A DNA stretch of 64,000 nt from the human T2T-CHM13v2.0 reference genome, Homo sapiens, in NCBI RefSeq assembly GCF_009914755.1, contig NC_060947.1; one strand, written 5' to 3'. The position numbers and the translations under genes were made by a program. Shown piece after piece: positions 5,611 through 33,779 of this stretch. A model generated the notes under the pieces. It was given only the letters and a program-made list of their open reading frames with translations, did not search any database and had not been told where the DNA came from. Position 1 is the stretch's first letter, and each line of letters begins with the position of its first letter.

Positions 5611-6529
5611 TATTATTATTACCGTTCTTTATCACTAAATAAATACTATTTTATATGTAAGTGAAATATAATACCAACTCCAATTATAACATATATAATA
5701 TGTATACATATATAGATAGAAAGCTAGACTACTATACAGGCTACTCTAATAGCATAGGAGATGGTCACCTAAGCCAAATAATGTCACTGTCATGGTTGGG
5801 GGTAGGGGGAGGCTTACTGAAAGAAGGTGATAGCCGCACTGTATTTTGATTGATGACTAAGAATTAGGTGAAGAAGAGAGTTGTAGGGGTTACTCCAAGA
5901 AAATACATATTATTCTATATTCTATATGTTATTGTAGAGAACAGTAACATAAAGAAATTATTGATTGGGAGCTGCAGTATGGTAGGGGATGTTAGGCTGG
6001 AGAGTGGGAGCAGTTGAAGTTGGAGATAGAGACAGGGACTAGAGACTTTGAAGGGCTTTGCCTGCCATGCTAACTACATTAGACTAAAGTCTCAGGGACT
6101 AGTTTTCTTGAAAACGATGAACTAAAAGATTCACACTGTGATGTAAATAAATAAAAACAGGTATTTGCATTTTAATAAAGCACAGAATGTTCCACAGGTC
6201 CAATTTCAAGCATTGGTAATTAGGGAAGAGGAATCTCCCTCATGTCTCTCAGTTCACACATTTATGAGAGGATGACACACCTGGTTGTCTGCATACCAGA
6301 CTGTTCTACTCAGTAGGGAACTTGCCACCCTTCTGGAGGTGGGGGAGGATTCTATTTTCCAGAAACCCCCTAGTCCATCACTGGTAATAAGAAACTAGGG
6401 ATAGAGGGTGGCTCCCATGGCAACCAGTGCCCACAGCCCTGTAAACACTTATAGCTGAGAGGGACTGGGAGGCAAACAGGTGTTCTAACCAGCTGGGTCT
6501 GCTGGTTTCTTTCCATTGGTACCACATGG

Positions 6530-14915: not shown

Positions 14916-17636
14916 ATATATAAAATATATCAAAGAGGTGCTCTGTTTAAATCTGATAGGGGTAGGGTAGGCATGAACTTTGCCATCTCTGGAACCTGAA
15001 TAATTGAGAGTTAACTACATGAACACATTTGCACATGAACGCTGGCCAAACTCTAGAAGCACCACTGAGTGAGCACTACAGGACATGGGGGAGACAACTC
15101 CCATCTTCCAAACTTTGGAGGATTATTATGTATAAGAAGTAGATTTCATCGGGGTTGCAACTTGAATCAGAACTAGAGCCAGTGAGTATGAAGGGAGTAC
15201 ACACAGGTAGATACGGAATCAATAGAATGATTTGAGATTCTCAGGTTGTCTGATGAAGTGGTAAGCTCTCTAGCTTTGGAAGTGTACAAGAAGAAGCTGT
15301 ATATCTCTCTGTTAGTCTTGCTATAAAAAATTTTCTGAAGTGGCCGGAGGATTGATTGGTTCATACCACCTTGACAATCTTTGTAGCTCTGAGATGCTAC
15401 AGCCAAAAGTCAAAAGTGTGTGAGCCCAAGGATGAGGGGTAATATATGTTTGTTTTTTACAACTTGAGAGAGGTCTTTGGCCTTTCTTCCTGGAATCCCA
15501 GAGACAAATTTTCCTTGCAAAAGTTCATTCCATCCTAATTGCGATTCCATTTCCCAGAAATTACCTGATGCTGGGCTGATGATTAGTGGCCAGCCAGGGG
15601 TAAAGGGACTGATTCCCATGGCAACCAGGTTGAAAAAACATACCATGTGGAGAATTGTCAGCAACGAGCTACGTTTGCATTATAAATAGATATTTAATTC
15701 ATTGAGATAGTTTGTGACAACTTCTGCATTATAAATAGGTACTTAATTCATATAGATAGCTCTGACAGCAAGTAGGAAAGTTAAACCCCAAAGCCACTCT
15801 TTGTCTTTAAGTATTTCAGAGTTAATTGACAACCATTTTTTTCCTTCTAAAACATGTAGAACTTGGCTAAGTGGGAGAACGGTATATGTGAGTGTTTTTA
15901 GAAAGCCAACTAATAGTCCAACGTCACAACATTTCTCACTATTTGTTTCTCACTGAAAGATTTTTCAGAATTTTCCCTGAGTGCAAGAGTATCTCTCTTT
16001 GAATCCTTTTGACACAGGAGACCCCAGGTTCAATGTCTGGATTTCACAAGAGTTATTTCCTGTCATGTTTGTCTCACTGTCACCCTGCTTTTCTAACTCA
16101 GAGGCATCTCAAAATTTCAGTACTTGGCCCTCTGCTCTTATCTTCCCATTTCTCTTTCCCTTGGTGAAAGCTAAAGCAATCACGTTATCACTTGCTAACT
16201 TACACAACTTTACTAGCCTTGACAATATACACTTTGGAACACCCAAAGGTTGGAAAACAGAATCAGATCTGATCAAAGGACGTTTATCCTAAGACTGAGG
16301 ACCAACTCTTTCCGGTGTTCAAAATATACTGCTTGATTGAGGGTTAGGGATGGAGAGTTTGAGGGCAAAAAGTGGTGTTCAGCAGCAAGCAGCAATTAAG
16401 TTTGGCTAAACTCAAATGTAAAAGTAATTTTGAAATGCAATTTTTACAAATACTATAGTAAATTAGTATAAGGGACTAATAGAATCTCATCAAATGGAAA
16501 TCAGAGTGGGACTTTGTACTTCTACATTCCAAAGAGCTTAATACAAATTAGTCTATAATACTCAGAGTGTTTCATTCTGTAAGGATTAAGGTAAATGGGA
16601 TGCTTTTTTTTTTTCATTAACTTGCTGTGTAAATATGCTTCCTAATGCAACCATATAGAGGAGTTGCTTTCTAAACTTTATTATAACCAGGGTTAAATAA
16701 CTCACCAGGTACTGTACCCTTGTACATTGCTCTATTGAACAGTGTTAGCTTAGAATTAAACACTGCTGGGAGGCAAGTTTAACTTCTTTAGGGTCAGATT
16801 TGAAGGGGTCATGACCCCCTCTCAGACCTGTAGGTCACTTTTTCTGAGGTCTTTAACAAGCTTTGAGGAACTAGGTAAGCCACCCACCCCATTCCAAACG
16901 GCCTAATGGCCTAATGTGTACTGAATTCCCACTCATGGGGCAAGTGGCCTTCTAATCCAGGGGGAAAGATCAGTGGCTGAGAATGGGAGCTAGCCCCCCG
17001 CCCCACCATTTCCCCATTTGGAATCCTGGGAGGCGACACTGGCAGGTCCCCTGTTCCAAACCATCCACCTCATCTGCTTACTGGCTTCTTGAGATCCCAC
17101 CATTACACGCACATTCCTTTGGGAAAATGGAACTCTCTTTAGAGAGGGACAAAGTATCAGATTTGATTAATTGTTCTTACTTAAGAGTGAATTCATTTAC
17201 ACCCTGTGATTGCTAGGTAAGGGTCACAAAGCGCGCTTTTCCAGTTTCAAAGTGCTGCTGAGGGCCAATCCCACTGTTTGAAAGTGGATGTACTATGGAC
17301 CCAAACGTAACACAATGAAATGCATGTAATGTCTGTGTTTTCCCTCCTCAGGCTCAACTTGGAGAGAGTGTTGCCATTCATTCATTCATCTATCCCATGG
17401 AAGGGCAAAAGAATACTCTGGTCAGTGACTATGTGTCAAACCAAATTGGGAAGTAGCTATTTTGGAGCCCCCTCCCCACGCCCATCCTTGAACAACTTTC
17501 TCTTTTCTCGTACCCCTGCACTCTCTTATTCTGCCATCGAGATCAGCTCCAATACATCATTTCTAAATTGTTAGTGGAAAACAGACCAATAGAAGACCAC
17601 AGCCATAGTTTTTGAAGTTAAATAGTGAATACTCTT

Positions 17637-17662
17637 TTTATTCAGAAGAATGCATTTTTAAT
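17637..17662 (-). terminator. IGSF1: IGSF1 polyadenylation signals (ATTAAA and AATAAA)
   Basis: Plus-strand tttaat at 17657-17662 and tttatt at 17637-17642, about 240-260 nt past the stop codon. Confidence 0.85.
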
Positions 17663-17898
17663 AGAATTTCATGCGCCAGTAAATCAGTACAGTGAGGAGT
17701 TACAGGGGTGGGGAACCTCTCTTCAGGAAACATCTCACCCTGGCAGAGCTCTCAACTCCCAGAATCCCCTTTACCCAGCTCAGGTGATTAGAGACCAAGG
17801 AACAGCAGATGGGGCTGACTTGCAGGGTAACTGGTTGGATTTATAGGTCTCTGAGAGCAAGAGAGAGGAGAGGAAAGCTCTTGTAAAGGAGGAGATTA

Positions 17899-18034
17899 TT
17901 ATATTGGAACGGGCAGTTCCACAGAGATTCTCTGAGAGGTTGATGAAGGAGAATTGGCAGGGGTGCCTGGTTCTCCTTCTTGGTTACACTCTTCAAGGGC
18001 AATGGTCTGGTCTCTTCCGTCTGTCTCTGAGCCT
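17899..18034 (-). CDS. IGSF1: IGSF1 exon 20 coding part, cytoplasmic tail
   Basis: GSETDGRDQ...VELPVPI then tandem TAA TAA (17901-17896). Confidence 0.96.
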
Positions 18035-21000
18035 CTATGTAAAGAAAAAGACATGAGTAAGGGAGGACCCAGAAACTGAAAACAGATTGCACGGTGGGGC
18101 TCAGATACTAGGGGAGCATTTGTATGATTGTTTTTCTAGCACCACCTGGTTCACAGAAGGGGGCCATAATGAGGCATTTATTTACCTGGTTCGCAGTCGA
18201 GGCCACTTCTTCCACTCTATGGCTAGCACTACCCCCAAGGCTACAACAACCACCACGATTAGGCTACTTCGGACAATGTTCCCTACAGTGCACTCCTGAG
18301 CAACAGGCCCTGTGGTGATGAAAGAGGAGAAACCGAGGCCATGGAGATTAGCGTGTGTATGTTCCCCTTGATCTGGTATTGCCCCACACTCTGGCCTTCT
18401 TTAGGGTTCACGTGGGAGCCATCTGTTCAGACTACAGAGGGGGTGGGCAGTGGCAGAGTTTATGCTGAAGCAGAAGCAGCCCTCCTTTCCTTGGGGAAAA
18501 GAGGCCTGAAAAGAAACCCACTCACTATCTTCAAATATATTTAAGGTCCCACCTCCTCATCATCCTTAGGAGAAAGATGACACACTTCAGGTCCCTGGCT
18601 CCAAAGCTCCTCCATTCTCCTGATTTGGGATGTCTCCATGGGGACTGTCCCTGGGATCCCAGGTGTGTCACACCAGGACCATGGAGAGATTATTCTCTTA
18701 CCTGCTGCCCCCACCAGCTCCAGGGGATCACTAGGCTCTGACCAGATATCAGGGTAGGCCTGGAGGCGGTAGCTGCAGCTGTAGTTTCCAATGCCTTTTC
18801 CTTCTACGTTGTTGATGACAAAGTCTCCATCCTCTGAAAACTGCTGAGGTGCTTCTTCTCCATCATGTTCTAGGACAAATTCAACACCTGGCAGGGGTCC
18901 TCGGCACTGAAGGGTGATGTCCTTCCCTAACTTGAACATGGTGCTGGGCCAGGCTGACAGAGAGGGTTTAGGGGGCTTATCTGCAACCAACAAGGACACA
19001 GAGTTAAAAGAAATGATCCTGAACTTAGCCTTTTACCCCCTTATTGCTTACTGCTAAAAACTACAAAATCGTGACTTGTACTGAAGTCTCCAGGACCTTA
19101 CCAGTCACCCAGATCTCCAGGGAGTCACTGTGATTTGAAGCTGCAAAGGGAGTAGAGTCCAAATAATAAACACAGCTATAGATCCCAGAGTCTTCACCTC
19201 TCACTGCTGGCATCCAGAAGTCAGCCCTGTACCCACTTGGCCTCTGTTGCTCTAAAGGCTCCTGAGCCCCCTCCTTCAACAGGACAAATGTTGAGTCTGG
19301 CAGTTCCCCTTGACACTGAAGAGTCATATTTTCGCCAGGGGCCACCATGGGACCAGGCTGGGCTAATAGGCTGGGTTTGGGGAGTAAGCCTGGAAGAAAT
19401 GAACTCCTGGTCAAAGAGAAGAGGTCACTTTCCAGTGCATCACCCCTGGGGTCTCTGCTCAATAAAGAGGAAAGGCAATTGGTTGCCTCTCCTCGAGCTC
19501 TCTGAAAACTATCTCCCATGAACTAGTCTATTCCCTCCTTTCTACACTTCCATGCCCACTCGACAGCCTCTTCCCCTTACCTGTGACTAGGAGTTCCAGG
19601 GTGTTGCTAGGTTGTATCTTGATAGAACTGGTCCAGTCAGGGTGGTAGCAGCAGCTGTAACGCCCCATGCTAGTACCAGATATATTGGTGATGGGGAATG
19701 CCCCGTCATTACTGGTGGATCCCCAGAGCTGCATTGAAGTGGCTTCTCCTTCTTTGTGCAGAATGTATCCTACTCCATGGACCGGCCCTCGGCACCAGAG
19801 AGTAACATTCTGCCCCATGGGAACCACAGAACTGGGCTCAGCAAACAACCATGGCTTAGGGAATGTGTCTAGAAAGAGACCAAGGTTGTAAAGTGGTGAC
19901 TATAGAAACTTATGAGTTCCTGCTTAAATTAACACTCTATCTTTCTCCTCTTGGGCACGGTAGTTCCCCTCCGTGGCCTAGCCTAGCCTTCCAGGAGGAA
20001 TTACTCTCCCTAACCCCTTCTCCAATGATCTCCATCCCAGTCCCATGTCCGGTCGGTCCTTACCAGTCACCCAGATCATAAGGGGCATACTGAGATATGA
20101 CCCCCTGTTTGACATGGTTGTCTCATAGTAGATACAGCTATAGTTCCCAGAGTCCTCTGCTCCAACAGTGTGGAGAAGGAAGTCAGCTGAGTTCCCTGAG
20201 ACACTCCGAAACTGTAAGGGAACATGGGCTCCCTCCTGCAAGAGGGCGAACCTCATGCCCTGGAAAGTCCCTTGGCAGCGCAGGATCACACTCTTCCCAG
20301 GAAACACCACAGGACCTGGCTGTGCCAGGAGAGTGGGTTTGGGGTAGAATTCTGAAATTAAAGAGACCACAGCATGAGATAAACCCAGCCCTCACATCCT
20401 GCAAATAGCCTTTTAAAGTGTTATTGTAAGACACAATATATGTTTGTTGTTAAAAATTAGAAAATATAGAAAAAAAAACTAATGAAGGAAACACAATTCT
20501 ACCACTCAAAGATAAATATTTTTAATATTTAATTGCCATTTATTCTTTCCATATATTCCCATGTCCATGTAGCTATAACTGTTTACATAATTGGGACTCC
20601 ACTTATGCACAGTTGTGTAGTTGTGTAGTATGCAGCTGACATTTCAAGGTCTTCTCCCTTTCTCTGAGAGCCATCCAGCCCACCGGTCTCTGACAGCCCA
20701 GCTAGAGAAAAAGTGGACATTGAGCCTAAAGCTCAATGCCAAGCCATAAAAATGTGCAGAAATAGGGCAAGTTGAACCGAGCTCTTGGGATTAGACACCC
20801 CCATCTACCTCATTTATTTCCCCAGAAGTGAATTGCTTGCCTCCCCACTGCCTTTGTTTCTTGTTCCTGTAATAATAACATGAGCAGCTGTGCATCATGG
20901 ACTGGTCACTATGGGCCAGCCGCTGTCCTAAGCACGTTCTCAGTGTGTTTTAGAAGAAACATTTCTTCCTCTCCCACTGACAGCCTTCCACCCACCATCC

Positions 21001-24000
21001 CAGGGTTGGCACCACCTCTACCTGGAGTCCCCCCTCCTAACCTGTCACCACGAGCTCCACAGGGTCGCTGGGCTCAGACCAGATAGAAAAGTCATAATAT
21101 CGGCAGCTGTAATTCCCTCCATCACCAATGCCCACCGAAATGATTAGAAAGTGAGCTGCACTGGCCCCCGGACTTGCCCAGGACCTGTCACTGGATGCTA
21201 TTTCACTTCCATCTTTGTAAAGAATAAAGCTCATATGCTGGTGGGGGGTGGAGCAATTGAAAGTCACTCGGGCACCAGGGGTGACCACAGGGCTGGCCCA
21301 TGTCTTGAAGAAGGGCTTAGGGTACATTTCTAGAAGGCAAAAAACAAAAACAAAAACAAAAAACAAAATACAACACAAAACCAAATTAAGAACAAGAAAG
21401 AGAGAAAGCAAATATAGCAAATATTGGTTCTCGGAGGCTTCTTTGCTTTTAAGTAAGTGCATTTAAAAAGTAAGGTAAATCCACTTTGCAGATGGACTTC
21501 TCACACAGGGACCCTTCAACCCCACCCCTCACTACCTCCAGATGAGTCCTCAGTGTGATCAGGGCAGGCAATGGAGGCTAGTAAAAAGGTAGAATTTTTC
21601 TTGGGGTTCTGCTGATTCTCTGAGCCTCAGTTTGCCCATTTGGACAAGGGGAAAATGGTACCTGCTTCACCCACCTTGAAGAGTTGCTCTATGGTGAAGT
21701 GAGATAATTGATGTGAAAATAATTAGAAAAATTAAATCACCCTCCACGAACCAAAGCTATTAATAACGATTATGGCTATTAATATCGTGCAGCCAGAGGC
21801 CCTGGCACTCCCAGCGCCACGCCTGCCTGGCTCTAAGATTGGACACAGGCTCTCAGGACCAGCAGCAAAGTTTGCTGCAGGGAGAGGAGTGTCTGACCCA
21901 GGGCTTTGCCTTTCCCTCCACCCTGCCCCCTTTCCTCCCACACCCTTTTCAGCTCTACCTTTTATGACAAGCTCCAGCGGCTCACTGGGCTCAGACCACT
22001 TGAAGGGGCGTTTTTCAGTGTGAGTGCGGCAGCTGTAATTGCCTTCGTCTTTATCCTCCATTCTCTGGATTGTAAAGAAGGCTTCTCTTCCAACAGCACC
22101 AAGTTGCTGGACAGGTTCTTGCTCTCCCTCCTTATACAGAGCAAACCCCATGCCTGCCAGCCATCCTTTGCACCGGAGTTGTAGTTCCTGGCCCCGGATT
22201 GTGGGGGAAGCAGAAATGACAGGTTTGGGGAGGATGTCTGGAAAACAGAATGGGGTGAAAAAGGAGTCAGAAGTTTGCAGTTGCCCAGATGGGATACTCA
22301 GGGTCACTTTGTCAGCAAATAAAGACATTCATTCTGGGCTGGCCCTAGGCTCTTCCAGTCAGTCTCCTCACACTCTCTTTCCCATTCCGCCCCTCCCCCT
22401 ACCCCATAACCCCCTACCATTTCAGTGCCCCTCCTCTCCTACATGCAGCACGAGCCCCTTGGGCTCCAGGGTCCCTGTGAGTTCATTCCCTCACTCCCAG
22501 GAGCAGTGTTGGAGTCCCAGGGGCACTGGGGATAACTCCCGGAGACCCTCTACATTTTCTTACCTGTCCCCACCAGCTCAAGTGCCTCACTGGGCTCCGA
22601 TACAGCCATCTCCTCCCATGAATGGCAGTGGTAGCTCCCGGTGTGGCTCTGGGTCAGGGCGCCAAGGGGGAAGGCAGCCCGGACCTGCTCTGAGGCCGGG
22701 CGAGTGGCGATCCACCCGGTCCCATCCTTCAGCAACACAAACTCCTTAGTTGAGCCAGAAGGGCTTCTGCACCAGAGGGTTAAGTTCTTCCACGGGGCCA
22801 GAGGAAAGTTGGTCTCTGCCCACAGCTCAGGCTTAGGGGTTGGCATGACTATTTCTAGAAACAGCAGAATTAATGAAGCCATCCTCCCGCCTCCCTTCCC
22901 CTCCCTCCTCCTTGCCCTTGAACCCTCTACCCAGATCACACTGCCCACCTCCCCTTGCAACCCAAATCCAAACCCTTTCCTTCTTTCCTTCCTTCCTCAG
23001 GTGCTGGGGAAAGGGGAAGCTGGTGTCTTATAGCTGAGCCTCAGAAAAGTGCAGAAGCTTGGAGGAAATTTTGCAGGCAGAAAGGCAAAGTTGGAGGCTG
23101 AATTTTGCCAGCAGCTTTAGCAAGTGCCCCTTCCTGGCTGCCCTTCCCTCCCAACCAGCCACTCCCTGGCCAATGACACTGACGCTCTGTAGTTATTTCG
23201 GATCTCCAGGGAGGAATGTCCCAGTCTGGAGCAGGAAAAACTCACCAGTCTCTTCTATCAATACCCCATTGCACAGTCCTGCAAAAGAAATTGCTGCCAG
23301 GACTCGGCCCCCTCCCCCACCGGGACTTCACCCCGGCCTTCTGCCCGGGGCCCCTTCCCCCACTTGTACTCACCACAGCAGAGAAGGGCCGTGACTATGA
23401 AGAGCATGGTGACCCCTTGAGCTGTTCCCAGCAACCAGGCTTCTCTAGTGAGACCAGAAAAGAGATGAGAGGAGTTGCTGGGATGAGGGGGAGGGTGGAG
23501 GAAAGGGGGCGGCAATTTATGTCATTGGCTTACTCGCTACCCAATGGGGACTGGATATGGCCAAGATAATCGGATATAATCTTATTTGACATCAATGACT
23601 TTTCTTTTTGAGGGCCTTACCACCTACAAACCTCTTGCTCTTTCATGACCCACGTGTCCCCCCCGCCCCCTCCCCACTCCGCAGCCTATATCATATGTCA
23701 GCTCCCCATGGCCCCTGATTAGGTTGTTGCTGGAATTGAGATGTCAGATGGGAAAATGCTTTTATATTATTTGGAGCTCTCAGAACCCCTGGAGCTCATT
23801 GTGATCGGCAGCTCTGGGTGGTGTGTGTGGGGGTGGAGGGAGAAACTGTGAGTATTTCTCAGTCATCAAGTTTAAGTTCGGAAGCAGTTGTTGTGGCAGT
23901 ATTGGTCCTCAGACCCACCTGCCTCACCTGCCTTTGTTATGGAAGGGTTGCCTAGGCAGCTGTGATGAATTACTAGAAGATTGGCAGTGCCGAGCCAAGC

Positions 24001-27000
24001 TTTTCAGAGAGTAGAAACTCTCCCCTCACCCAGATTATAACTAGAAATGTGCAGCAGCTTTGGGTCATGAGTCTTGTAGTATTAGATGATATTAACCCAA
24101 AATCCATTGGACAATTTTTACTTAGAAAACACTGACCATCCTTCCTGGTGAGGAAAACATGATTTTCAAGCTGCTTTCTCTGAAATCTGGTTCCTGATCT
24201 TATTCTTTGATGCAGTGTTGCTGGGCTGGGGTGGGGCACATAAAGCTACATTTTTTTTTTTTTCTAACCACTGGCTTGGAGATTACTCTAATGAGTACGG
24301 GACCCAGGTCAGGTTCCGGAAAGAAGTAGAACTTGACCCCTGCTGAAACTTTTTGAAAACTCAAAGGGTGGTGGTTTTTGCAGAAGGCTTAGGTGGCTCC
24401 CTTCTGATTGCCCAAGTATTCTGTCCCTCAGATTCCAGTGGAAAACACAGACACATGTAATCATAATCATAATCCATTGTGCATTGAATACTTCCAGACA
24501 CACTGACCACAGTTGCAGGGCGGGGGGTACAGCCAGAAGCAGGGAGTAGGGGGAAGTAGACAAGGTATTCAGGAGCTAACATCCCTACTGGGTCAGAAGT
24601 GGTCATTTCTCTCCTTGTTCCCAGTAGAGTAGCCTGAGCACAAGCCATGGGGATGAGAGAGGCAGATGGCCCAGAGCACACCACAGAATCAAAGGAAATG
24701 GCAGGAGAATCTGTTTGGCCTGTGAGTTTGTGAGTCAGAGGAAACAGTCTGATTCTGTTGCCCCGTCCAATATCACATCAGATGGCCATCCAGGTCAAGT
24801 CTATATTCCCAGAATGCTCTGCACAGGTGGTTGGAGGCCACAGTGTCAGAGACTGGTTACTAAGGCAACTAGGATGCGTCACAAGGCTTAATAGCTCCTG
24901 AGAGCTAGGGATAAGGGTGAAAAGTTGGGATAGGAGTTGGATAACAGTCTGGGAGACAGGACAGCATGGCTTCTTACAAGAGGAAAAATCCAGAACAAGT
25001 TAATGAGGGAGACATCAATCATCTCTGAGGGCAGGATGGTTTGTGGGCGAGATTTGGGCACCCTCCGGGGGGGATGTCAGTGAATGCAGTTCTGATTACT
25101 CCTCTTGCCTCTGAGAACTATGCATTTCTCCACCCGCTGGCTTGAGTGCTGACCCCTCTGTGAGGCGAAAGAGACAGGTGGGGTGAGAAAGTCTTGTTCC
25201 CTAAGCCCAGAAGATAGGGGTTCTATAGGGTTTGCCTCTGTGGCTTGTCTCAACTAGGGCATGACTCATTCTTCAGACTCTGTTAGGTTGGGGAACAGGG
25301 GGCTGGGACAAGACAGTTACCTGATTCTGAGTCTCCGACACTTCCACCTTATCCACAGCACTACCAACAGCAAGGCAACAAGCTGCATGATTAGAGACAA
25401 CCTGATAGCTTCATTCAGAACGTAATTCCAGGTGAGATAGCCTGTGGCCAGAGAAGACCAGAATCAGAGGCCTTGATGGGGACAGGGGCAGGTGAATACA
25501 TTCATGGGGTGAGGACAATCTGGTTACTGACAGTGCTTATATTGAGAAGGTGAGGCAGAAGTGGCCTTCTTTTTCATGGAGAATGGGAGCCTTGAAATTA
25601 TCCTGCTAACTGCCTTTGAGGAATTGTGAGACCACCCCAGGGGAAGGGTGCTGAAACCCAAGGGCTCTGATTTTCAGGCCTCTGACTCCCTTTCCCATAT
25701 CTTTCTGGGCACTGATCTGGGATCCCTGGGGTATGGAGGGGCATTCCTCTGAAGAGTTATCCTCTCACCTGCTGGCCCCATCAGCTTCAGGGGCTCACTG
25801 CGATGTGACCAGATGTTAGGATGTGTCTCTACGCGATAGCTGCAACTGTAGGTCCCTGTGCCTTTCCCGTCAACATTACTGATGATGAAGTCTCCGTTTA
25901 CTGAGAATTTTTGGAATGTTTCTCTTTCTTCCCATTCCAGAGAAAATTCCAGTACTGGATGAGATACTCGGCACTGAAGGGTGATGGCCTTTCCTAGCTT
26001 GAACACAGTGCTTGGCCAAGCTGACAGGGAGGGTTTGGGGGGCTTATCTGAAACCAATCCAGAGACCAGAGTGAGAAGTGACCTCAAACCCAGTACCCTC
26101 TCCCCCAGAAAATGTTTCTGAGCTCCCCATTTGATCTTCTCTTCCTTTCCACTTCCACTTGGCCAGTGGCTTCAAGATTTGACTGTGCATTAGAATTCCT
26201 TTGCCCACCCCTTGGTGATCTAAAGATTCCTGGTTCCTTACCTTCAATCAGGAAGACCTCATACCTGTAAGCTTCCTCTGGCCTAAAGAAAAATAATTTT
26301 CCCAGGGGTTACAATGGGGCTGTGCCATACTGAGAGGTGGAGCTTGAGGAACAATCCTGGGAGACAAGGTCCCTAAAGTTTTGGAAGAAAGTTCTACACC
26401 ACCTTCCTAGTGCGTGTGTGTGTGTATGTGTGTGTGTGTTTTGCTCATAGCTCTCAGAGGATATGAGGCTACTAGCTCCTTCTTACAACACCACAATGAT
26501 GATAAAAACAAACAGGTTGATAATAAAAACAGTTGTTAACACTTGCCTACAACCATAAGCTCCACAGTGTTGTGTGATGGCATCCTAATGGAGGTCTTCC
26601 AGGTGAGAAGATAGTGGCAGCTATAGATGCCAGTATCACTGTAGGTTACATTGTTGAGGAAGAATGATGTGTTGTCATCGATGCTGGTGGCATCCAAAAA
26701 TTGAAGTGGTTTGTCTTCTCCTTTCTTATAGAGTGCAAGACCCACTCCATCCACTGGTCCTCGACACCGTAGGCTCACATTCTGACCCATTTGGACCACA
26801 GCACTGGGCCGAGCAAGTAGCCAGGTCTTGGGGAAAGTGTCTAGGATGAGACCCAGAATAAAAAGCACTAGTGATTTCACTTCCTGCTCCCACTCCTTAA
26901 GATTCTTTTCCTTCTCTTCCTCCAAACCACCCTTGGAAAAACCTGCCTACACCCAGTTTTACAAATTCTGCTCCCTTCTCTACTGTTAACCCTGGCCACA

Positions 27001-30000
27001 GGATTAGGTTCTCCAGGGAGCACAGAGGGAGATTTATATCCTTAGCCGTTAACCTAAGTTTCATGGCATACCCGTCTCTTACCAGTTACCCAGATTTTCA
27101 GGACATCACTAAGGAGTGAACCTCTATATGATGCGTCATAGTAAAAACAGAGGTAATGTCCAGTATCTTGGATCTTCAAAGACTGGAAGAAGAAATTTGC
27201 CTCATTTTTTATTGTCTTCTTGTGGTAAAAGGACTTCTCCAAGTCTTCAACCCTCATTAGAGCAAAGGTCATTCCATAGATTGGCCCTTGGCACCTGAGA
27301 TTCAGGCTTTCTCCAGGTGCCATGATGGGCCCAGGATGGGCTGTCAAAGTTGGTTTGGGGTAGAGTCCTACAAACGGAAGAGACCCTAAAGTTAGAGGCA
27401 AGATGATTCTTTCCTGTTGTCTTCTGTTTTCTCTTTCTTAATTTCTTTGAACAAGAAGTGGTAGCTGAAGTTTACCTTCTCTTCCCTATCCCTTCCTTGG
27501 ATCTCTGCCTCTGTAACATAATCAAGGGTAGATTCACTTATGCCCCTGTTCTCTCTCAAGAATCTGCCAGCTTCACTGAGCTCTAACCATGTGTAGGGGT
27601 GTATCTCAGTGGAAGATCTACATCTATAATTCCCTGTATCTTTAGGCCCCTGAAATGCCAAATGTAGTTCTTTCAACCACCAGAAAAACCAAACCTCTGA
27701 AAATAACATTGTTTTCATCTTTGCAGAGCATGAATGCCACTGAAATATTAAGGAGAGCTTTTGAATACATTAAGCTCATTTAAGACCCTACTTCTACAAC
27801 AAGACTGAAAGAAGCCAATAAAGAGGGTTTGGCCAGTAAGTCTGCGACCCAAATAAATCTTTGTTATGGGGCCACACATTCCTTTCCATGAATTGTTTCT
27901 CCAAGGAGATTTTACATGAAAGTGAGGGCAAACCTCACCTCCTACCACTCCTTCCTACCCCCACCCCAATGCCAGGCACACTTATCTATTCATTAAGGAA
28001 GGATCAGCTCTGTCATATGCTCACTGAGCATTTAGTATGCATCAAGCGTCATGTAGGTCTAGGTGTGTATGAGTAAAGAAGACACAGTCTCCGCTAGCAA
28101 AAAGCTCATGAACTGGTTGGTGGGGGATATTGGTGAACAGGTAACTACGGAAGTGTATTTTAGTGGAATCTATGCTGAAAGGGCATGAGTACAACAAACA
28201 TTCATACACTCAGTTCAAACAGGCAGTTTTTGTTCTTTGATCCTCAATAAAAAGCTATACTAACAAAATTAATATCTACCATTTATTGAGAACTTATATG
28301 CCAGGCACTGTACATATATATTTAGGCAAATCCTCACAACAACCCTGTGAGGTAGGCATTATTATTAAACCAATTTTGCAGATCAGGAAGCTGAGGCACA
28401 GAGAGAAGCATTACACAGTAGATCAGATAGATACTGTTATCCCATTTTTAGAGTAGAGGAAGCCAAAGCACAGAAAAGTGAAGTGACTTGCTCAAGACCA
28501 CACAGGGAGGCAGTGTCAGAAATAGAACTAGAAACCAGTATTACTGCTTCTAAGTCTAGGGTACTTTCTGTAGCACCACAGCTTTCCCCAAGCCTATTTA
28601 GCTGGATAGAGAGACTAAAGCAAATGTGGCCAATTCCATCTAGAAACCTCCAGGCCATGGGGTGGGGGAGTTCGGGCTGGGACATGTCTGGCATTTTACA
28701 TTTTGGGGAAATTTCTTCTATATTTAGAGATTGGTGCTGCCTTACTAGCTCTACTGATAGGGAACCAAGGTGATTTATAAAGCCATTTCTAAAATATGAG
28801 CTATCACATTCTTTGTCATTTGTTTTTTTTTGTTTTTACTCACCAACACTAGCAATCCATTCTGTTTTCCACACATAAAAATAACAATTACAAATAAAAT
28901 ACATTTGCAAATTTAAAACTCCATTTATAAGATTGCAGTGGCAGTGCCTGGCACATATTAGGTGCTCAATAAATACTGGTTGAATTAATGAATGAATGCA
29001 TGATATTCAACAAGTTGAGAACAACAAAGCTGTGATGAGCTGAAGCTGCTGGCCAGTTGGCTGGGCTCCTTTACTAGCCAAATGATTGGCTCCCATACAT
29101 CTGCCTTGCAGCACATGCCATTCTAATTTATATCTCAGTAAAACTTCAAACGACTGTAGCTCATGGGGCCTTGCAGGGCCTAGAAACTGGCTGAGGAAAG
29201 TAAAATCAGAAACCCTAGCTCAGCCAGCCATGATACCTGGGACAACAATTGCCAGATGCCAGCAGCCATAGCCACACCCACCTGCTACAACCAGCTTCAG
29301 GGGGTTGCTGGGCTCTGACCACAGGGTGGGGAGCATCTGGATATGAGTGCGGCAGATGTAAACCCCTTCATCCTCAGGTGTCAGGTTGTCAATGGAGAAT
29401 ATGGCCATTGTCCCAGTTGGGACTTGGTAATCCACAGGCTCTGCATATCCCTCTTTAAACAGCATGAATACCAAATCCTGCAGCCAGCCATGGCAGAGGA
29501 TGTTAACATTACACCCAGGAAGAGCGGGGGTCTCAGCCTGAATCCAGAAGATGGGCTTGGGCAGTTGGCCTGGAAGGATAGAATGAACTGGAATTAGGTA
29601 AAGCAAGGATAGTACTGTCTAGGGAGCAGCAGAGGAGAGCTCTACTTTAATTGAGGTTTCCCTGTATGATCCTTGTTTGCCACCCCTCCTTCTCCTATCT
29701 CTGCTCCAGAGTCTGCATCCCCCCTCTGCATTGCCCAATACAAAGTAGGCCCTTATTTACTAACTGTGGGATGCGTGCTTGCATGCATTTGTGAAACAAA
29801 CTCTCCCCTGGAAGGCAAGTTTGAATCTCAGGAGCTGGAGTTGATTCTTGAGTATCACTGTCATCTTACCTGGTGCCTCCAACTCTAGAACTTTACTGGG
29901 CTTTGACCAGCCTGTCTCCTTCCAGTAGCAGCACCGGTAAAGACCTGCATTGGACTCAGTAAGGGCACCTATAAGGAATGAAACTTGGAAGGTCTTGTGG

Positions 30001-30777
30001 GAAGGGCGGATCCAGGTCATCTGTGTCTTATCCTTCAGCAGCAGGAACTTGCTTGATATCCGAGAGGGGCTTCGGCACCAAAGCGTGATGTTCTCCCAAG
30101 GGGCCTGGGGGTAGTTGGACTCTATCCACAACTCCGGTTGAGGGTCCATCACTGTTATTCCCAAAGATCAAAAAGATATGAGCAGTCCAACCCTCTCCCT
30201 CCCATAACATGTCCCACAATGTCCCTTAAAATTAGCCCGGACCCAGATCCCTCATTTTGTCTTCCCTTGGGGACAGGAGTGTGCTCCTGTGGGGCATCGT
30301 ATAAGAACCCCAAGATATTTTGTCAAGGGGTCCAAATGAATTGGAGAATAAAGTCTGATGGTCTCTTTTCCATCTGAGATAAAGCTTTTTCACCATGCCA
30401 TAGGAAACCAAGTCCTCTGATTCCCAATCAGCCCAATCTATCTCTGGAATCTCAAGGCATTATGTCCAAGGTCATGGAGACACGCCAGCATCTTGGATCC
30501 TTTAGGAAGGAGGTGCCTGAGAGGGCAGGACTCACTTACCTATCGATGTCATACCCAGACTCATCCCTGAAAAGAGAGATTATGGTAAAGGAGAGCTCCC
30601 TTGTTGTCTCCATCCTGTGCTCAAACCTCAATACTTTCCTCTCCCACCCCTAATGAGTGGGTACCTATGACAGGGTCACTTGCCCCTCACCCCTTCCTTG
30701 TACTCACGAATGCAAAAGAGCAAAACAGTGAATGTCTTCAGCATGGTGGCCCCCTCCCCTGGTCTGTCCAGGGTCAT
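17899..30777 (-). CDS. IGSF1: IGSF1 (immunoglobulin superfamily member 1) spliced CDS, 19 coding exons, 1336 aa
   Basis: Exon lengths 70+27+282+288+285+294+279+121+71+33+291+279+288+288+288+288+279+124+136 = 4011 nt. Translation MTLDRPGEGATMLKTFTVLLFCIRMSLG...SQRISVELPVPI* is the protein I recognise as IGSF1. All junctions are GT-AG except one GC-AG. Confidence 0.98.
18186..18309 (-). CDS. IGSF1: IGSF1 exon 19, C-terminal transmembrane segment
   Basis: GPVAQECTVGNIVRSSLIVVVVVALGVVLAIEWKKWPRLRTR; 124 nt; phase 1-2. Confidence 0.96.
18702..18980 (-). CDS. IGSF1: IGSF1 exon 18, Ig12
   Basis: DKPPKPSL...GIGNYSC...LELVGAA; 279 nt. Confidence 0.97.
19102..19389 (-). CDS. IGSF1: IGSF1 exon 17, Ig11
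   Basis: GLLPKPSL...DSGIYSC...LEIWVT; 288 nt. Confidence 0.97.
19581..19868 (-). CDS. IGSF1: IGSF1 exon 16, Ig10
   Basis: DTFPKPWL...SMGRYSC...LELLVT; 288 nt. Confidence 0.97.
20064..20351 (-). CDS. IGSF1: IGSF1 exon 15, Ig9
   Basis: EFYPKPTL...DSGNYSC...MIWVT; 288 nt. Confidence 0.97.
21042..21329 (-). CDS. IGSF1: IGSF1 exon 14, Ig8
   Basis: EMYPKPFF...DGGNYSC...VELVVT; 288 nt. Confidence 0.97.
21959..22237 (-). CDS. IGSF1: IGSF1 exon 13, Ig7
   Basis: DILPKPVI...DEGNYSC...LELVIK; 279 nt. Confidence 0.97.
22564..22854 (-). CDS. IGSF1: IGSF1 exon 12, Ig6
   Basis: EIVMPTPKPELW...HTGSYHC...LELVGT; 291 nt. Confidence 0.97.
23246..23278 (-). CDS. IGSF1: IGSF1 exon 11, 33-nt micro-exon (GLCNGVLIEET)
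   Basis: ttcttttgcag|GA...ACTG|gtgagt; phase 1-1. Confidence 0.94.
23374..23444 (-). CDS. IGSF1: IGSF1 exon 10, internal signal peptide
   Basis: EAWLLGTAQGVTMLFIVTALLCC; 71 nt; donor G|GTGAGT. Confidence 0.95.
25321..25441 (-). CDS. IGSF1: IGSF1 exon 9, first transmembrane segment
   Basis: GYLTWNYVLNEAIRLSLIMQLVALLLVVLWIRWKCRRLRIR; 121 nt; phase 1-2. Confidence 0.95.
25769..26047 (-). CDS. IGSF1: IGSF1 exon 8, Ig5
   Basis: DKPPKPSL...GTGTYSC...LMGPA; 279 nt. Confidence 0.97.
26155..26356 (-). pseudogene. Fossil Ig-domain pseudoexon in IGSF1 intron 7 (paralog of exon 17/Ig11), 3' part decayed
   Basis: Phase-1 acceptor then (G)LFLKLHLSVWHSPIVTPGKIIFL*, 1-nt deletion, QRKLTGMRSS*LKVRNQESLDHQ. 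Confidence 0.8.
26547..26840 (-). CDS. IGSF1: IGSF1 exon 7, Ig4 (GC donor)
   Basis: DTFPKTWL...DTGIYSC...ELMVV; 294 nt; donor AG|GCAAGT. Confidence 0.95.
27083..27367 (-). CDS. IGSF1: IGSF1 exon 6, Ig3
   Basis: GLYPKPTL...DTGHYLC...KIWVT; 285 nt. Confidence 0.97.
27545..27841 (-). pseudogene. Fossil Ig-domain pseudoexon in IGSF1 intron 5 (paralog of exon 14/Ig8)
   Basis: Phase-1 acceptor then (D)LLAKPSLLASFSLVVEVGS*MSLMY...FMLCKDE..., frameshift, PKDTGNYRC...TWLELSE. Confidence 0.88.
28270..28580 (-). mobile_element. MIR elements in IGSF1 intron 5
   Basis: accatttattgag...cctcacaacaaccctgtgaggtagg...gaagctgaggcacagaga, with a second core at ~28435-28570. Confidence 0.88.
29282..29569 (-). 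CDS. IGSF1: IGSF1 exon 5, Ig2
   Basis: GQLPKPIFW...DEGVYIC...LKLVVA; 288 nt; donor G|GTGGGT. Confidence 0.97.
29870..30151 (-). CDS. IGSF1: IGSF1 exon 4, Ig1
   Basis: VMDPQPELW...C...AGLYRCC...LELEAP; AG/GT bounded; 282 nt. Confidence 0.97.
30540..30566 (-). CDS. IGSF1: IGSF1 exon 3, 27-nt micro-exon ending the signal peptide (RMSLGMTSI)
   Basis: ctcttttcag|GG...ATAG|gtaagt; phase 1-1. Confidence 0.95.
30708..30777 (-). CDS. IGSF1: IGSF1 exon 2 coding part: start codon and signal peptide (MTLDRPGEGATMLKTFTVLLFCI)
   Basis: ATG at 30777 and a second in-frame GCCACCATG at 30744. Donor C|GTGAGT. Probable acceptor ttctgcttttag with exon start near 30844. Confidence 0.95.
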
Positions 30778-31154
30778 GGGGCCTCTGGTGCTGGCTGTGT
30801 GCTCTGAGTCTTGAAGAATTTTTCTCCTCAGCAGGTGGTGGGATCTAAAAGCAGAATTGTTTTTACTCAGAGGACTTGTCCTGCTCCTTAAAGTTTAGTT
30901 TAGATGGCTAAATTGCACTTGACAACCCTACATTGTACTTCCTCACAGGCATGCAGGGTATTACAAGGTCACCTGCTGCTTCCTCTCCTTGCTCCTTTCC
31001 CTCACTTCCCTATCCTGCTCAAGGTCTTTGTTGGTATCAAAGATGTCAGATTTGTTGAAATATGGATTTGTCTCTGGGATCTCAGAAGCCCAGAATAGCC
31101 TGCAGAAGCTCCACAGGATGGGGGAGATGGGAGGTGCAGAGTCACCTTTTCAGA

Positions 31155-31278
31155 TATGCATATATATATATACGTATGTTTATATACGTATATATATGTG
31201 TATATACATGTATATATATGTGTGTATATATACATATATATGTGTGTATATATATACGTATATATGTGTGTGTGTGTG

Positions 31279-31308
<30 letters not shown>
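31155..31308. repeat. Compound (TA)/(TG)/(GA) microsatellite in IGSF1 intron 1
   Basis: Directly visible. Confidence 0.97.
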
Positions 31309-33029: not shown

Positions 33030-33650
33030 GCTCGGCGGGGTGCCGGGTACATGCTCAGCTGAGGGTTTGGAGGGAAGACTGAGAAGGAAAAGGGGAGATA
33101 TCTACAGTGCCCAGAGATTCTCACCGAGGCAGGTCTGGGATCCGGGAAGGAAAGGAGAAAGGCAGGAATGAAGCGGGTGGGGGGACAGACTGGGGAGCAG
33201 TTTGATTTACGGCAATTAATTACAGCAAGGAGACTCTTTCGGGGTTTTGTTTAGGATCCGGTGGCCAGTATTTAATATTCAGCCACTGAACTATGCGCTC
33301 ATTTGTAGGTACTTACGGTAGTTGAAGGCCCGCTCCGATGTTGGAGATTCTCCAGTGAGCTCCTCCAGATGCAGCAAACTGCCCGGCATGAGAAGAGCTG
33401 TCTAAGGACAGCCTCTTCGGCTCTGAGCCCCGCCTTCCTCTCTCCCCCGCCCGCCTGCCGGCCCGCCCCAACCTCCTCCCCTCCCTGGGCCGGGCTCGGG
33501 GAGCCCACCTACACCAACTCTGCCTGGCACCTGCAGTCCTCTGACGACGGGGATTTCTACGCCCCTCCCAGCTCCCCGCCTCTCTCCGGACTCCCTGCAG
33601 AGGTTGCTGGAGCCAAATTCAGGCCCCTGCCCCCTCGCCTGTCTCTCAGA
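33030..33650 (-). promoter_or_regulatory. IGSF1: GC/CpG-rich IGSF1 promoter region
   Basis: Local CpG enrichment against a CpG-poor background, with several GC boxes (ccccgccc, cccgccc at ~33428-33470, ~33575). Confidence 0.75.
33317..33545 (-). other. IGSF1: IGSF1 non-coding first exon (5' end approximate)
   Basis: Consensus donor CC|GTAAGT (plus-strand acttac 33311-33316) at the edge of the GC/CpG-rich region. The TSS cannot be fixed from sequence. Confidence 0.7.
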
Positions 33651-33779
33651 GTTTCACTGGGTCACTGTATTCTGGGGGGGAGAAGGCCAGCTCTCAAGAA
33701 GATTTGTAGATCCTTCTCTCCAGCTCCCCAATACCTTTATCGGGATCTCAGATCTTCCCCTGCCCATTTTAACGCCCCA

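What the first reader, a model, noticed from the sequence alone, without database searches (positions are those of the whole stretch)
17620..30844. IGSF1 appears to be a fusion of two tandem 7-Ig receptor genes, with the missing parts still readable as intronic fossils
Seen: exons 2-9 and 10-20 pair colinearly. Exon 2 (ACC ATG, MLKTFTVLLFCI) matches exon 10 (ACC ATG at 23407, MLFIVTALLCC), and micro-exon 3 matches micro-exon 11. Ig1~Ig6, Ig2~Ig7, Ig3~Ig9, Ig4~Ig10 and Ig5~Ig12. TM exon 9 matches exon 19 (both phase 1-2, ending WKCRRLRIR / WKKWPRLRTR). Ig8, Ig11 and the tail exon have no functional N-terminal partner, yet decayed copies lie at the expected intronic positions (27545-27841, 26155-26356 and, less certainly, ~24940-25157). 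Established: IGSF1 is co-translationally cut at an internal signal peptide into a 5-Ig N-terminal part and a 7-Ig C-terminal part. Inference: the internal signal peptide is the second gene's original leader, and the polyprotein arose when copy 1 lost its last exon and poly(A) site and spliced into the leader exon of copy 2. This would be a self-cleaving gene fusion with progressive decay of the N-terminal copy.
Basis: partly seen in the sequence, partly recalled or inferred. Interest (0 to 1): 0.9.

Follow-up and report, generated by a model that had tools for sequence, protein, structure and literature searches.

The report
IGSF1 gene fusion with dead exons
Human IGSF1 is an in-frame fusion of two tandem copies of one receptor gene, as already published, and two decayed exons in its introns suggest that each copy began with seven immunoglobulin domains.

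Summary
Exons 2-9 and 10-20 are colinear paralogues with matching phases, exon sizes and intron sizes. Leader exons, TM exons and several introns are significantly similar.

A profile of the 12 Ig exons finds exactly two further Ig-exon relics in the 64 kb window. F1 lies at 27546-27841 (E 7e-13) and F2 at 26188-26356 (E 2.4e-8). Both are on the gene strand, in the two introns the 5-versus-7 colinearity predicts, and both keep their AG acceptors but have broken reading frames.

F2 matches Ig11 at partner level: 59% identity, and 190 versus 191 nt of upstream spacing. F1 pairs with Ig8 in nucleotide ML trees (bootstrap 74-84), but alternatives are not rejected and its 3' third looks more like Ig7.

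The third "tail" fossil is not confirmed. Only a weak, repeat-like 3'UTR match lies next to it.

The core interpretation, a fusion of two similar genes with the internal signal peptide as the ancestral leader, is already in print (Guselnikov & Taranin 2019; Smith et al. 2022). The pseudoexons were not found in the searchable literature. They favour one of two scenarios that the 2022 paper left open. All 13 orthologue models examined already have 5+7 domains.

The parts
30708..30844 (-). Copy 1 leader exon (exon 2); block 30697-30764 is homologous to the copy 2 leader
   Evidence: SW z 9.2, 0 of 300 shuffles; shared CACCATG and identical donor GGTGAGTACAAG
30540..30566 (-). Copy 1 leader micro-exon (exon 3, 27 nt)
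   Evidence: Aligns positionally with exon 11. Its own similarity is not significant. Flanking introns z 4.8 and 3.9
25769..30151 (-). Copy 1 Ig exons Ig1-Ig5 (exons 4-8), with the two pseudoexons between them
   Evidence: Phase 1-1 exons; pair with Ig6, Ig7, Ig9/11, Ig10 and Ig12
27546..27841 (-). Pseudoexon F1: near full-length dead Ig exon between Ig2 and Ig3, the positional counterpart of Ig8
   Evidence: nhmmer E 7e-13. AG acceptor kept, donor AG|GG, in-frame TAA, at least one frameshift, first Ig cysteine replaced. ML sister of Ig8
26188..26356 (-). Pseudoexon F2: 5' part of a dead Ig exon between Ig4 and Ig5, counterpart of Ig11
   Evidence: nhmmer E 2.4e-8. blastn to Ig11 E 7e-9; single-segment nhmmer E 9e-12 against 3.5e-5 for Ig9. 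Identity 0.59. 190 vs 191 nt spacing and AG acceptor kept
25321..25441 (-). Copy 1 TM exon (exon 9, phase 1-2), whose donor now splices to exon 10
   Evidence: z 8.3 against exon 19, 0 of 300 shuffles; phases
24791..25157 (-). Putative relic of the copy 1 terminal exon (uncertain): pseudo-acceptor at 25158/25157 and a 3'UTR-like stretch at 24791-24934
   Evidence: Position 163 vs 151 nt after the TM exon. 3'UTR match E 2.4e-5 and 1.8e-4. Coding part not significant. Repeat-like extra copies elsewhere
31008..31138 (-). Sequence upstream of the copy 1 leader, homologous to 23704-23847 upstream of the copy 2 leader; the most 5' detectable part of the duplicated unit
   Evidence: nhmmer E 4.7e-4 and 3.7e-4 per query, colinear; alignment
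23374..23444 (-). Copy 2 leader exon (exon 10); ATG at 23407; the 37 nt before it are read through as the linker
23246..23278 (-). Copy 2 leader micro-exon (exon 11, 33 nt)
18702..22854 (-). Copy 2 Ig exons Ig6-Ig12 (exons 12-18)
18186..18309 (-). Copy 2 TM exon (exon 19)
17609..18034 (-). Copy 2 terminal exon (exon 20: cytoplasmic tail plus 3'UTR)
   Evidence: hub annotation

Best explanation
IGSF1 is the in-frame fusion of two tandem copies, about 6-7 kb each, of one LRC-type receptor gene.

SHOWN OR STRONGLY INDICATED
- The ancestral gene had a split leader (leader exon plus micro-exon), seven single-exon Ig domains, a TM exon and a tail exon.
- The phase-2 donor of the upstream copy's TM exon (exon 9) is spliced to an acceptor 37 nt upstream of the downstream copy's start codon (exon 10). 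Those 37 nt are open and in frame, so one 1336-aa precursor is made.
- The downstream copy's own leader therefore sits internally.
- In the upstream copy, the exons at the Ig8 and Ig11 positions died in place and persist as pseudoexons F1 and F2. That copy now encodes five Ig domains.

FROM THE LITERATURE
- The internal leader still acts as a signal sequence. [quoted passage not shown]

INFERRED
- Exon death happened before the eutherian radiation.
- The upstream copy's terminal exon and poly(A) site were bypassed and decayed.
For: - Colinearity of exons, phases and sizes.
- Intron sizes match, computed from the hub's exon coordinates: 141/95, 388/391, 300/326, 242/195 and 327/392 nt. The two fossil-bearing introns are 1914 and 499 nt, against 1607 and 600 nt for exon plus flanking introns in copy 2.
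- Exon and intron similarity between the halves.
- Leader homology: z 9.2, 0 of 300 shuffles. TM homology: z 8.3, 0 of 300 shuffles.
- Exactly two extra Ig-exon profile hits in 64 kb, both on the gene strand and both in the predicted introns.
- F2: identity to Ig11 is 0.59. Known partner pairs show 0.56-0.74; 59 non-partner pairs average 0.46 with a maximum of 0.56.
- F2: E 9e-12 to Ig11 against 3.5e-5 to the next best exon.
- F2: it starts 190 nt after Ig4, while Ig11 starts 191 nt after Ig10.
- F1: ML sister of Ig8 in two alignments.
- F1: in parametric simulations this grouping appears in 49 of 60 runs when true and in 0-4 of 60 under each of six alternative trees.
- ML path lengths for F1-Ig8 (0.97) and F2-Ig11 (0.64) lie at or near the range of the functional pairs (0.35-0.80).
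- All 13 orthologue models examined, including elephant and tenrec, show 5+7 domains.
- Literature: fusion/duplication and the internal signal peptide (PMC6557307 passages; PMC9162367 sections).
Against: - F1's overall identity to Ig8 (0.49) equals its identity to Ig5 and is barely above Ig7 and Ig2 (0.48). All of these are at non-partner level.
- F1's best local match is the 3' end of Ig7: 71% over 72 nt, z 15.8, against z 5.4 for Ig8.
- F1 has the long loop between the second cysteine and the tryptophan seen in Ig2/Ig7, not the short Ig8 form.
- AU tests do not reject F1 with Ig2/Ig7 (p 0.36-0.47) or other placements, nor F2 with Ig9 or Ig3.
- The protein tree with 13 orthologues puts F2 beside Ig9 (support 0.645) and F1 near both Ig8 and Ig1/Ig6.
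- The intron between Ig4 and F2 is not significantly similar to the intron between Ig10 and Ig11 (z 0.8).
- The terminal-exon relic is weak and repeat-like.
- The exon 10 acceptor aligns to an internal AG of exon 2, not to the exon 2 acceptor.
- No genomic DNA from other mammals could be examined.
Confidence: 0.78

Rival explanations
1. A mixed history. F2 is the Ig11 counterpart, but F1 is not the Ig8 counterpart. F1 would be a dead duplicate of an Ig2/Ig7-type exon. Ig8 was then either lost from copy 1 without trace or added to copy 2 after the duplication.
For: - F1's 3' third is 0.68 identical to Ig7.
- F1's best local and segment matches are to Ig7: z 15.8 and E 2.9e-8, against E 0.014 for Ig8.
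- The cysteine-to-tryptophan loop length is like Ig2/Ig7.
- AU p for F1 with the Ig2/Ig7 clade is 0.36-0.47.
Against: - The full-length ML trees place F1 with Ig8.
- Simulations on the F1+Ig2/Ig7, F1+Ig7 and F1+Ig2 trees give a false F1+Ig8 grouping in only 3, 0 and 0 of 60 runs.
- The position between Ig2 and Ig3 is exactly where Ig8 is missing.
- This rival needs one more event than the 7+7 model.
Confidence: 0.12
2. The ancestral unit had five Ig exons. Copy 2 later gained Ig8 and Ig11 by internal exon duplication. The relics in copy 1 are independent, short-lived exon duplications or conversions.
For: - Smith et al. 2022 kept open that loop 9 or loop 11 arose by an extra duplication.
- Ig9 and Ig11 are 0.61 identical.
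- Deep nodes of the Ig tree are poorly resolved.
Against: - It requires two independent gains in copy 2 and two independent gains plus losses in copy 1, at the same two positions.
- The F2-Ig11 distance equals that of the other partner pairs.
- The 190 vs 191 nt spacing.
- Ig8 and Ig11 are present in all 13 orthologues examined.
Confidence: 0.07
3. The two intronic matches are chance or compositional artefacts and not exon relics.
For: - F1's identity to any single exon is no higher than that between unrelated Ig exons.
- Some non-exon segments of the locus give spurious hits of E about 1e-4 to 1e-3 in control DNA.
Against: - Profile E-values are 7e-13 and 2.4e-8, with no comparable hit in the remaining 64 kb on either strand.
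- The strand and position are correct, and AG acceptors sit at the exact profile start.
- Ig hallmark residues are readable in translation.
Confidence: 0.02

Closest known systems
Published model of IGSF1 origin (Guselnikov & Taranin 2019, PMC6557307; Smith, Harrison & Bernard 2022, PMC9162367)
   Same: The domain pairings are the same: 1/6, 2/7, 3/9+11, 4/10, 5/12. Both papers describe a fusion or duplication of two similar genes. The 2022 paper treats the internal signal peptide as the ancestral leader, reports a faster-evolving N-terminal part, and places the origin in eutherians.
   Different: Both papers inferred this from the relationships of the 12 expressed Ig domains. In what I read, neither mentions intronic remains: a term search of the 2022 text gave 0 hits for pseudo/remnant/vestig/relic, and the single 'pseudoexon' in the 2019 text concerns opossum genes. 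The 2022 paper left open whether loop 11 was lost from the N-terminal part or loop 9/11 was duplicated later. The relics favour in-place loss from a 7-Ig copy. The supplements of both papers were not opened.
Pseudoexons in leukocyte-receptor-cluster genes (KIR2D pseudoexon 3, recalled from memory; opossum LRC pseudoexons, PMC6557307 passage)
   Same: A single-domain Ig exon stays in the gene but is no longer spliced in, which shortens the ectodomain.
   Different: The IGSF1 relics are much more decayed, with stops, frameshifts, a lost donor or a deleted 3' half. They lie in one half of a fused duplicate gene.
Conjoined or read-through gene fusions of tandem neighbours (general knowledge, recalled)
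   Same: The upstream gene's last exon is skipped, and its penultimate-exon donor joins an acceptor in the 5' part of the downstream gene. One transcript spans both genes.
   Different: Here the partners are paralogues, the fusion is the fixed main transcript, and the product is split again by the internal leader. A downstream-only transcript is reported only in rodents.
[quoted passage not shown]
   Same: An internal signal sequence directs co-translational cleavage into separate membrane proteins (IGSF1 processing as described in PMC9162367).
   Different: This is a cellular gene, and the internal signal is a retained leader of a duplicated gene. Smith et al. say they know of no other cellular protein processed this way.

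Membership tests
LRC-type Ig receptor gene architecture | Each Ig domain is encoded by one phase 1-1 exon of about 280-300 nt | tested here: met
   12 exons of 279-294 nt, all phase 1-1. F1 spans 296 nt with an AG acceptor at the profile start.
LRC-type Ig receptor gene architecture | Split leader: a first coding exon ending in phase 1, followed by a micro-exon of about 30 nt | tested here: met
   Exons 2+3 (27 nt) and exons 10+11 (33 nt). That this is typical of LRC genes is recalled, not tested.
LRC-type Ig receptor gene architecture | TM region with the conserved N..R motif | tested here: inconclusive
   Exon 19 reads GNIVRS (N-x-x-R). Exon 9 reads NEAIRL, with one extra residue between N and R. 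The motif definition comes from a PMC6557307 passage.
Tandem gene duplication followed by fusion | Two colinear paralogous units on one strand, including non-coding sequence | tested here: met
   Exon and intron similarity, matching order and spacing. Upstream block 31008-31138 matches 23704-23847.
Tandem gene duplication followed by fusion | Remains of the upstream copy's terminal exon and poly(A) region | tested here: inconclusive
   Pseudo-acceptor at 25157 and a 3'UTR-like stretch at 24791-24934 (E 1.8e-4). The coding part is not significant, and the 3'UTR piece also matches two sites outside the gene.
Tandem gene duplication followed by fusion | Independent transcription of the downstream unit | not testable with these tools
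   Reported for mouse isoform 4, which starts in intron 9; not reported in human (PMC9162367 Discussion).
Pseudoexon (dead exon) | Significant homology to functional exons at the colinear intronic position | tested here: met
   E 7e-13 and 2.4e-8, in the Ig2-Ig3 and Ig4-Ig5 introns.
Pseudoexon (dead exon) | Disrupted reading frame and/or splice sites, and absence from transcripts | tested here: met
   F1: TAA stop, frameshift, donor GG. F2: stops, frameshift, 3' part missing. Neither overlaps any exon in the hub's annotation. No annotated protein matched F1's open segment (weak evidence).
Pseudoexon (dead exon) | Orthologous relics in other species | not testable with these tools
   No mammalian genomic DNA other than this window is held.
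Internal-signal-peptide polyprotein | Co-translational cleavage at the internal leader | not testable with these tools
   Literature only (PMC9162367 Introduction and Fig 1 legend). Here only the homology of the internal leader to the N-terminal one was tested.

The most novel reading that the evidence does not exclude
The locus may once have held three or more tandem copies. A possible third Ig-exon 3'-end relic lies on the gene strand at 33632-33702, about 220 nt upstream of today's exon 1. On this reading, the present promoter and 5'UTR region sit in the wreck of a still more upstream copy, and the array has been decaying and fusing from the 5' side. The two intronic pseudoexons are the middle stage of that process.
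Probability: 0.1. Interest if true: 0.5.

Novelty: already known. Interest (0 to 1): 0.3.

Why it matters
The origin of IGSF1 by duplication and fusion, and the ancestral nature of its internal signal peptide, are already published. What this analysis adds is modest but concrete physical evidence in the DNA.

- The upstream copy appears to have started with the same seven Ig exons as the downstream copy.
- It lost two of them by exon death in place, not by deletion at the time of duplication.
- This favours one of the two scenarios that the 2022 paper left open for loops 9 and 11.
- It fixes the pairing Ig3 with Ig9 by colinearity.
- It gives rough limits of the duplicated unit, about 31.1-24.8 kb and 23.8-17.7 kb in window coordinates.
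- It supports the view that the N-terminal part is a slowly decaying passenger.

For clinical variant reading, the two pseudoexons keep intact acceptors. They are therefore candidate sites for pseudoexon activation by deep-intronic variants in IGSF1 deficiency. That last point is an inference and was not tested.

Tried and rejected
- Tail-exon coding relic at 24940-25157: SW z 0.8. A global alignment was uninformative. The acceptor-region test gave 33 of 300 shuffles unrestricted and 18 of 500 restricted. Not accepted.
- 3'UTR relic at 24791-24934: first looked good (E 2.4e-5). Controls showed the same 3'UTR piece matching 6309-6425 and 15526-15632. Downgraded to suggestive.
- Exon 1 as a relic of a TM exon from a third copy: SW z -0.4 and 0.3. 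Rejected.
- Further intron 1 to intron 9 homology: none, apart from 31015-31138 matching 23715-23847.
- Naive decay simulation: decayed copies always regrouped with their source. It does not mimic the real F1 and was set aside for the tree-based simulation.
It was replaced by FastTree.
- Search of the protein database with F1's 80-aa open segment: 5 candidates, none at E <= 10.
- No orthologue model with a 6- or 7-Ig N-terminal part appeared among the 120 listed of 232 hits. The longer models were checked. P0100 (1447 aa) carries receptor Pfam domains PF00001/PF13853, so it is probably a merged model; this is my reading of the Pfam column. P0087 (1371 aa) is marked low quality. P0005 (1360 aa) has its extra residues in the linker.
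- Xenarthran models were not among the rows listed.
Full report
**What is there**

The window holds human IGSF1 on the minus strand. Splicing the annotated coding parts gives a 1336-aa ORF.
- All 12 Ig exons are 279-294 nt and phase 1-1.
- TM exons 9 and 19 are phase 1-2.
- Leader exon 2 is phase 0-1. Exon 10 begins in phase 2 and ends in phase 1.
- The two micro-exons are 27 and 33 nt.

**Colinearity of the two halves**

A sensitive blastn of the N half against the C half gave these matches:
- Ig1+intron+Ig2 with Ig6+intron+Ig7: 965 columns, 58%, E 4e-32.
- Ig4 with Ig10: E 3e-28.
- Ig5 plus about 220 nt of intron with Ig12 plus intron: 550 columns, 66.5%, E 2e-63.
- Ig3 equally with Ig9 and Ig11: E 4e-13 and 1e-12.
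- TM exon 9 with exon 19: E 1e-3.

Direct tests with shuffles gave:
- Leader exon 2 against exon 10: z 9.2, 0 of 300 shuffles. The match includes CACCATG and an identical donor GGTGAGTACAAG.
- TM exons: z 8.3, 0 of 300 shuffles.
- Micro-exons alone: z 1.3, 48 of 300 shuffles, so not significant.

The micro-exons nevertheless align positionally. Intron pairs are similar in global alignment:
- Leader to micro-exon: z 4.8.
- Micro-exon to Ig: z 3.9.
- Ig1-2 against Ig6-7: z 6.1.
- Ig5-TM against Ig12-TM: z 7.5. All four of these had 0 of 200 shuffles reaching the score.
- Ig3-4 against Ig9-10: z 2.5, 5 of 200 shuffles.

Intron lengths, computed from the hub's exon coordinates, correspond: 141/95, 388/391, 300/326, 242/195 and 327/392 nt. 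The two odd introns of the N half are 1914 and 499 nt. In the C half, the exon plus its two flanking introns come to 1607 nt (629+288+690) and 600 nt (191+288+121).

**The fossils**

A nucleotide profile of the 12 Ig exons was searched over all 64 kb on both strands. It found the 12 exons (E 1e-43 to 1e-59) and exactly two more hits, both on the gene strand:
- 27554-27840: E 7e-13, profile positions 10-268 of 288.
- 26188-26356: E 2.4e-8, profile positions 4-150.
- The next hits have E 0.58 or worse.

*F1* begins right after a preserved ...tcgcag acceptor at 27841.
- It has an in-frame TAA and needs at least one frameshift to be read.
- A Tyr stands where the first Ig cysteine should be.
- It ends near 27546, where the donor reads AG|GG instead of AG|GT.

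*F2* also begins after a preserved ...tcccag acceptor.
- It carries stops and a frameshift.
- It is alignable only to about 26198, which corresponds to Ig11 position 164 of 288.
- The distance from its start to Ig5 is about 100 nt shorter than in copy 2. Its 3' part has therefore been deleted.

**Which exons the fossils correspond to**

*F2*
- It matches Ig11 far better than any other exon. SW z is 16.3, against 5.6 for Ig9 and 4.3 for Ig8.
- Segment nhmmer gives E 9e-12 against 3.5e-5 for Ig9.
- Identity is 0.59. Known partner pairs have 0.56-0.74; 59 non-partner pairs average 0.46 with a maximum of 0.56.
- It starts 190 nt after Ig4, while Ig11 starts 191 nt after Ig10. That intron pair is not itself significantly similar (z 0.8).

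*F1* is harder to assign.
- Its identity to any exon is 0.39-0.49, with Ig8 and Ig5 at 0.49 and Ig7 and Ig2 at 0.48. This is non-partner level.
- Its strongest local match is the 3' end of Ig7: 71% of 72 nt, z 15.8.
- It has the long loop between the second cysteine and the tryptophan, as in Ig2/Ig7. Ig8 has the short form in all 14 species, counting human.

*Trees*
- ML trees of the 14 nucleotide sequences, on two alignments, recover every published pair.
- They place F1 with Ig8 (aLRT/UFBoot 81.8/74 and 91.3/84).
- They place F2 with Ig11 (70.7/73 and 75.7/78), inside a strong Ig3/9/11 clade.
- AU tests do not reject the alternatives. For F1 elsewhere, p is 0.08-0.47. For F2 with Ig9, p is 0.14-0.22, and with Ig3, 0.32-0.41. 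Only F2 with Ig5/12 is rejected (p about 0.03).
- Simulations on the fitted trees recover F1+Ig8 in 49 of 60 runs when it is true. Under six alternative trees it appears in 0-4 of 60. Long-branch attraction is therefore not a likely cause under the model.
- A protein tree with 13 orthologues per domain and X-masked pseudo-translations keeps F2 in the Ig3/9/11 clade (support 0.978) but beside Ig9 (0.645). It leaves F1 between Ig8 and Ig1/6.

My reading: F2 = Ig11 counterpart with probability about 0.85. F1 = Ig8 counterpart with probability about 0.75, resting as much on position as on sequence.

**The third fossil**

It lies 163 nt after exon 9; exon 20 lies 151 nt after exon 19.
- The stretch is not significantly similar to the exon 20 coding sequence (z 0.8; 33 of 300 shuffles unrestricted, 18 of 500 restricted).
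- Just 3' of it, 24791-24934 resembles the exon-20 3'UTR colinearly (E 2.4e-5 per query; 1.8e-4 window-wide).
- The same 3'UTR piece also matches 6309-6425 (E 7.5e-4) and 15526-15632 (E 7e-3) outside the gene.
- I treat this relic as suggestive only.

**Limits of the duplicated unit**

- Upstream of the leaders, 31008-31138 matches 23704-23847 colinearly (E 4.7e-4 and 3.7e-4 per query; alignment).
- No counterpart of exon 1 is found in intron 9 (z -0.2).
- The exon 10 acceptor aligns with an internal CAG|AG of exon 2, not with the exon 2 acceptor.
- The 37 nt before the copy 2 ATG are read in frame as 12 linker codons.

**Other species**

The protein database lists IGSF1 from many eutherians (232 hits, 120 listed). 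I read 16 of them and mapped the domains in 13.
- In all 13, Ig2 abuts Ig3 and Ig4 abuts Ig5 wherever both are present. This includes Loxodonta and Echinops.
- The 5+7 form therefore predates the split of Afrotheria from Boreoeutheria.
- Two models each lack one N-terminal domain by my threshold (Rhinolophus Ig3, Echinops Ig4). One assignment (Erinaceus Ig5) was dropped as a mis-hit.
- Mean identity of human to these species is 0.823 for N-terminal domains (62 values) and 0.901 for C-terminal domains (91 values).
- F1's open segment found no annotated protein.
- No mammalian genomic DNA besides this window could be searched, so conservation of the relics is untested.

**What is known**

- Guselnikov & Taranin 2019 (PMC6557307; passages seen) state the same domain pairings. 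[quoted passage not shown]
- Smith, Harrison & Bernard 2022 (PMC9162367; Introduction, Results and Discussion read) propose that the C-terminal gene was duplicated upstream of itself and that the internal signal peptide keeps its ancestral role.
- They also propose that loop 8 was lost from the N-terminal part 'during or after' duplication.
- For loop 11, they leave two options: it was lost, or loop 9/11 arose by an extra duplication.
- A term search of that paper gave no mention of pseudo-, remnant, vestig- or relic.
- Four library searches found nothing on IGSF1 intronic relics: IGSF1+pseudoexon, IGSF1+duplication+eutherian, IGSF1 with five exon-relic terms, and IGSF1+A1BG+leukocyte receptor cluster.
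- Subscription-only papers, including the 1998 gene-structure papers, and the supplements of both papers were not seen.

**Verdict**

The finding is real, and its interpretation is right in the main, but the main idea is already published. The two pseudoexons appear to be a new supporting detail. They favour a 7+7 origin with in-place exon death in the upstream copy.

Noticed in passing
window 33632-33702 (minus strand): Possible 3'-end relic of a third Ig exon, about 220 nt upstream of IGSF1 exon 1. The full Ig-exon profile gives E 0.73. A 3'-end sub-profile chosen after the fact gives E 0.0014, with the next non-Ig hits at E 0.099 and 0.13. Exon 1 shows no similarity to the TM exons.
   Followed up: partly
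window 17700-17900, 24791-24926, 6309-6425, 15526-15632 (all minus strand): Part of the IGSF1 3'UTR has weak matches of similar strength at three other places in the window (E 1.8e-4, 7.5e-4 and 7e-3). It may be an old dispersed element; no repeat library was available to name it.
   Followed up: partly
window 26545-26546 (donor of exon 7, Ig4): Exon 7 ends ...GTTGTAG|gcaagt, so it has a GC rather than GT donor. The intron that follows is the one holding pseudoexon F2.
   Followed up: no
window 31151-31294: Self-inverted, low-complexity block in intron 1 (several inverted self-matches, E down to 3e-21). It coincides with a stretch masked in NCBI's file.
   Followed up: no
proteins P0001, P0109, P0112, P0114-P0116, P0118-P0120: Turtle proteins named 'IGSF1-like', 'alpha-1B-glycoprotein-like' or unnamed, 836-1911 aa, match Ig8 at 38-48% identity. 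The 2019 paper says such non-mammalian 'IGSF1-like' names are not orthologues.
   Followed up: no
proteins listed: Many species have an annotated 1240-aa IGSF1 form, about one Ig domain shorter than the 1320-1342-aa form. Which exon is skipped was not checked.
   Followed up: no
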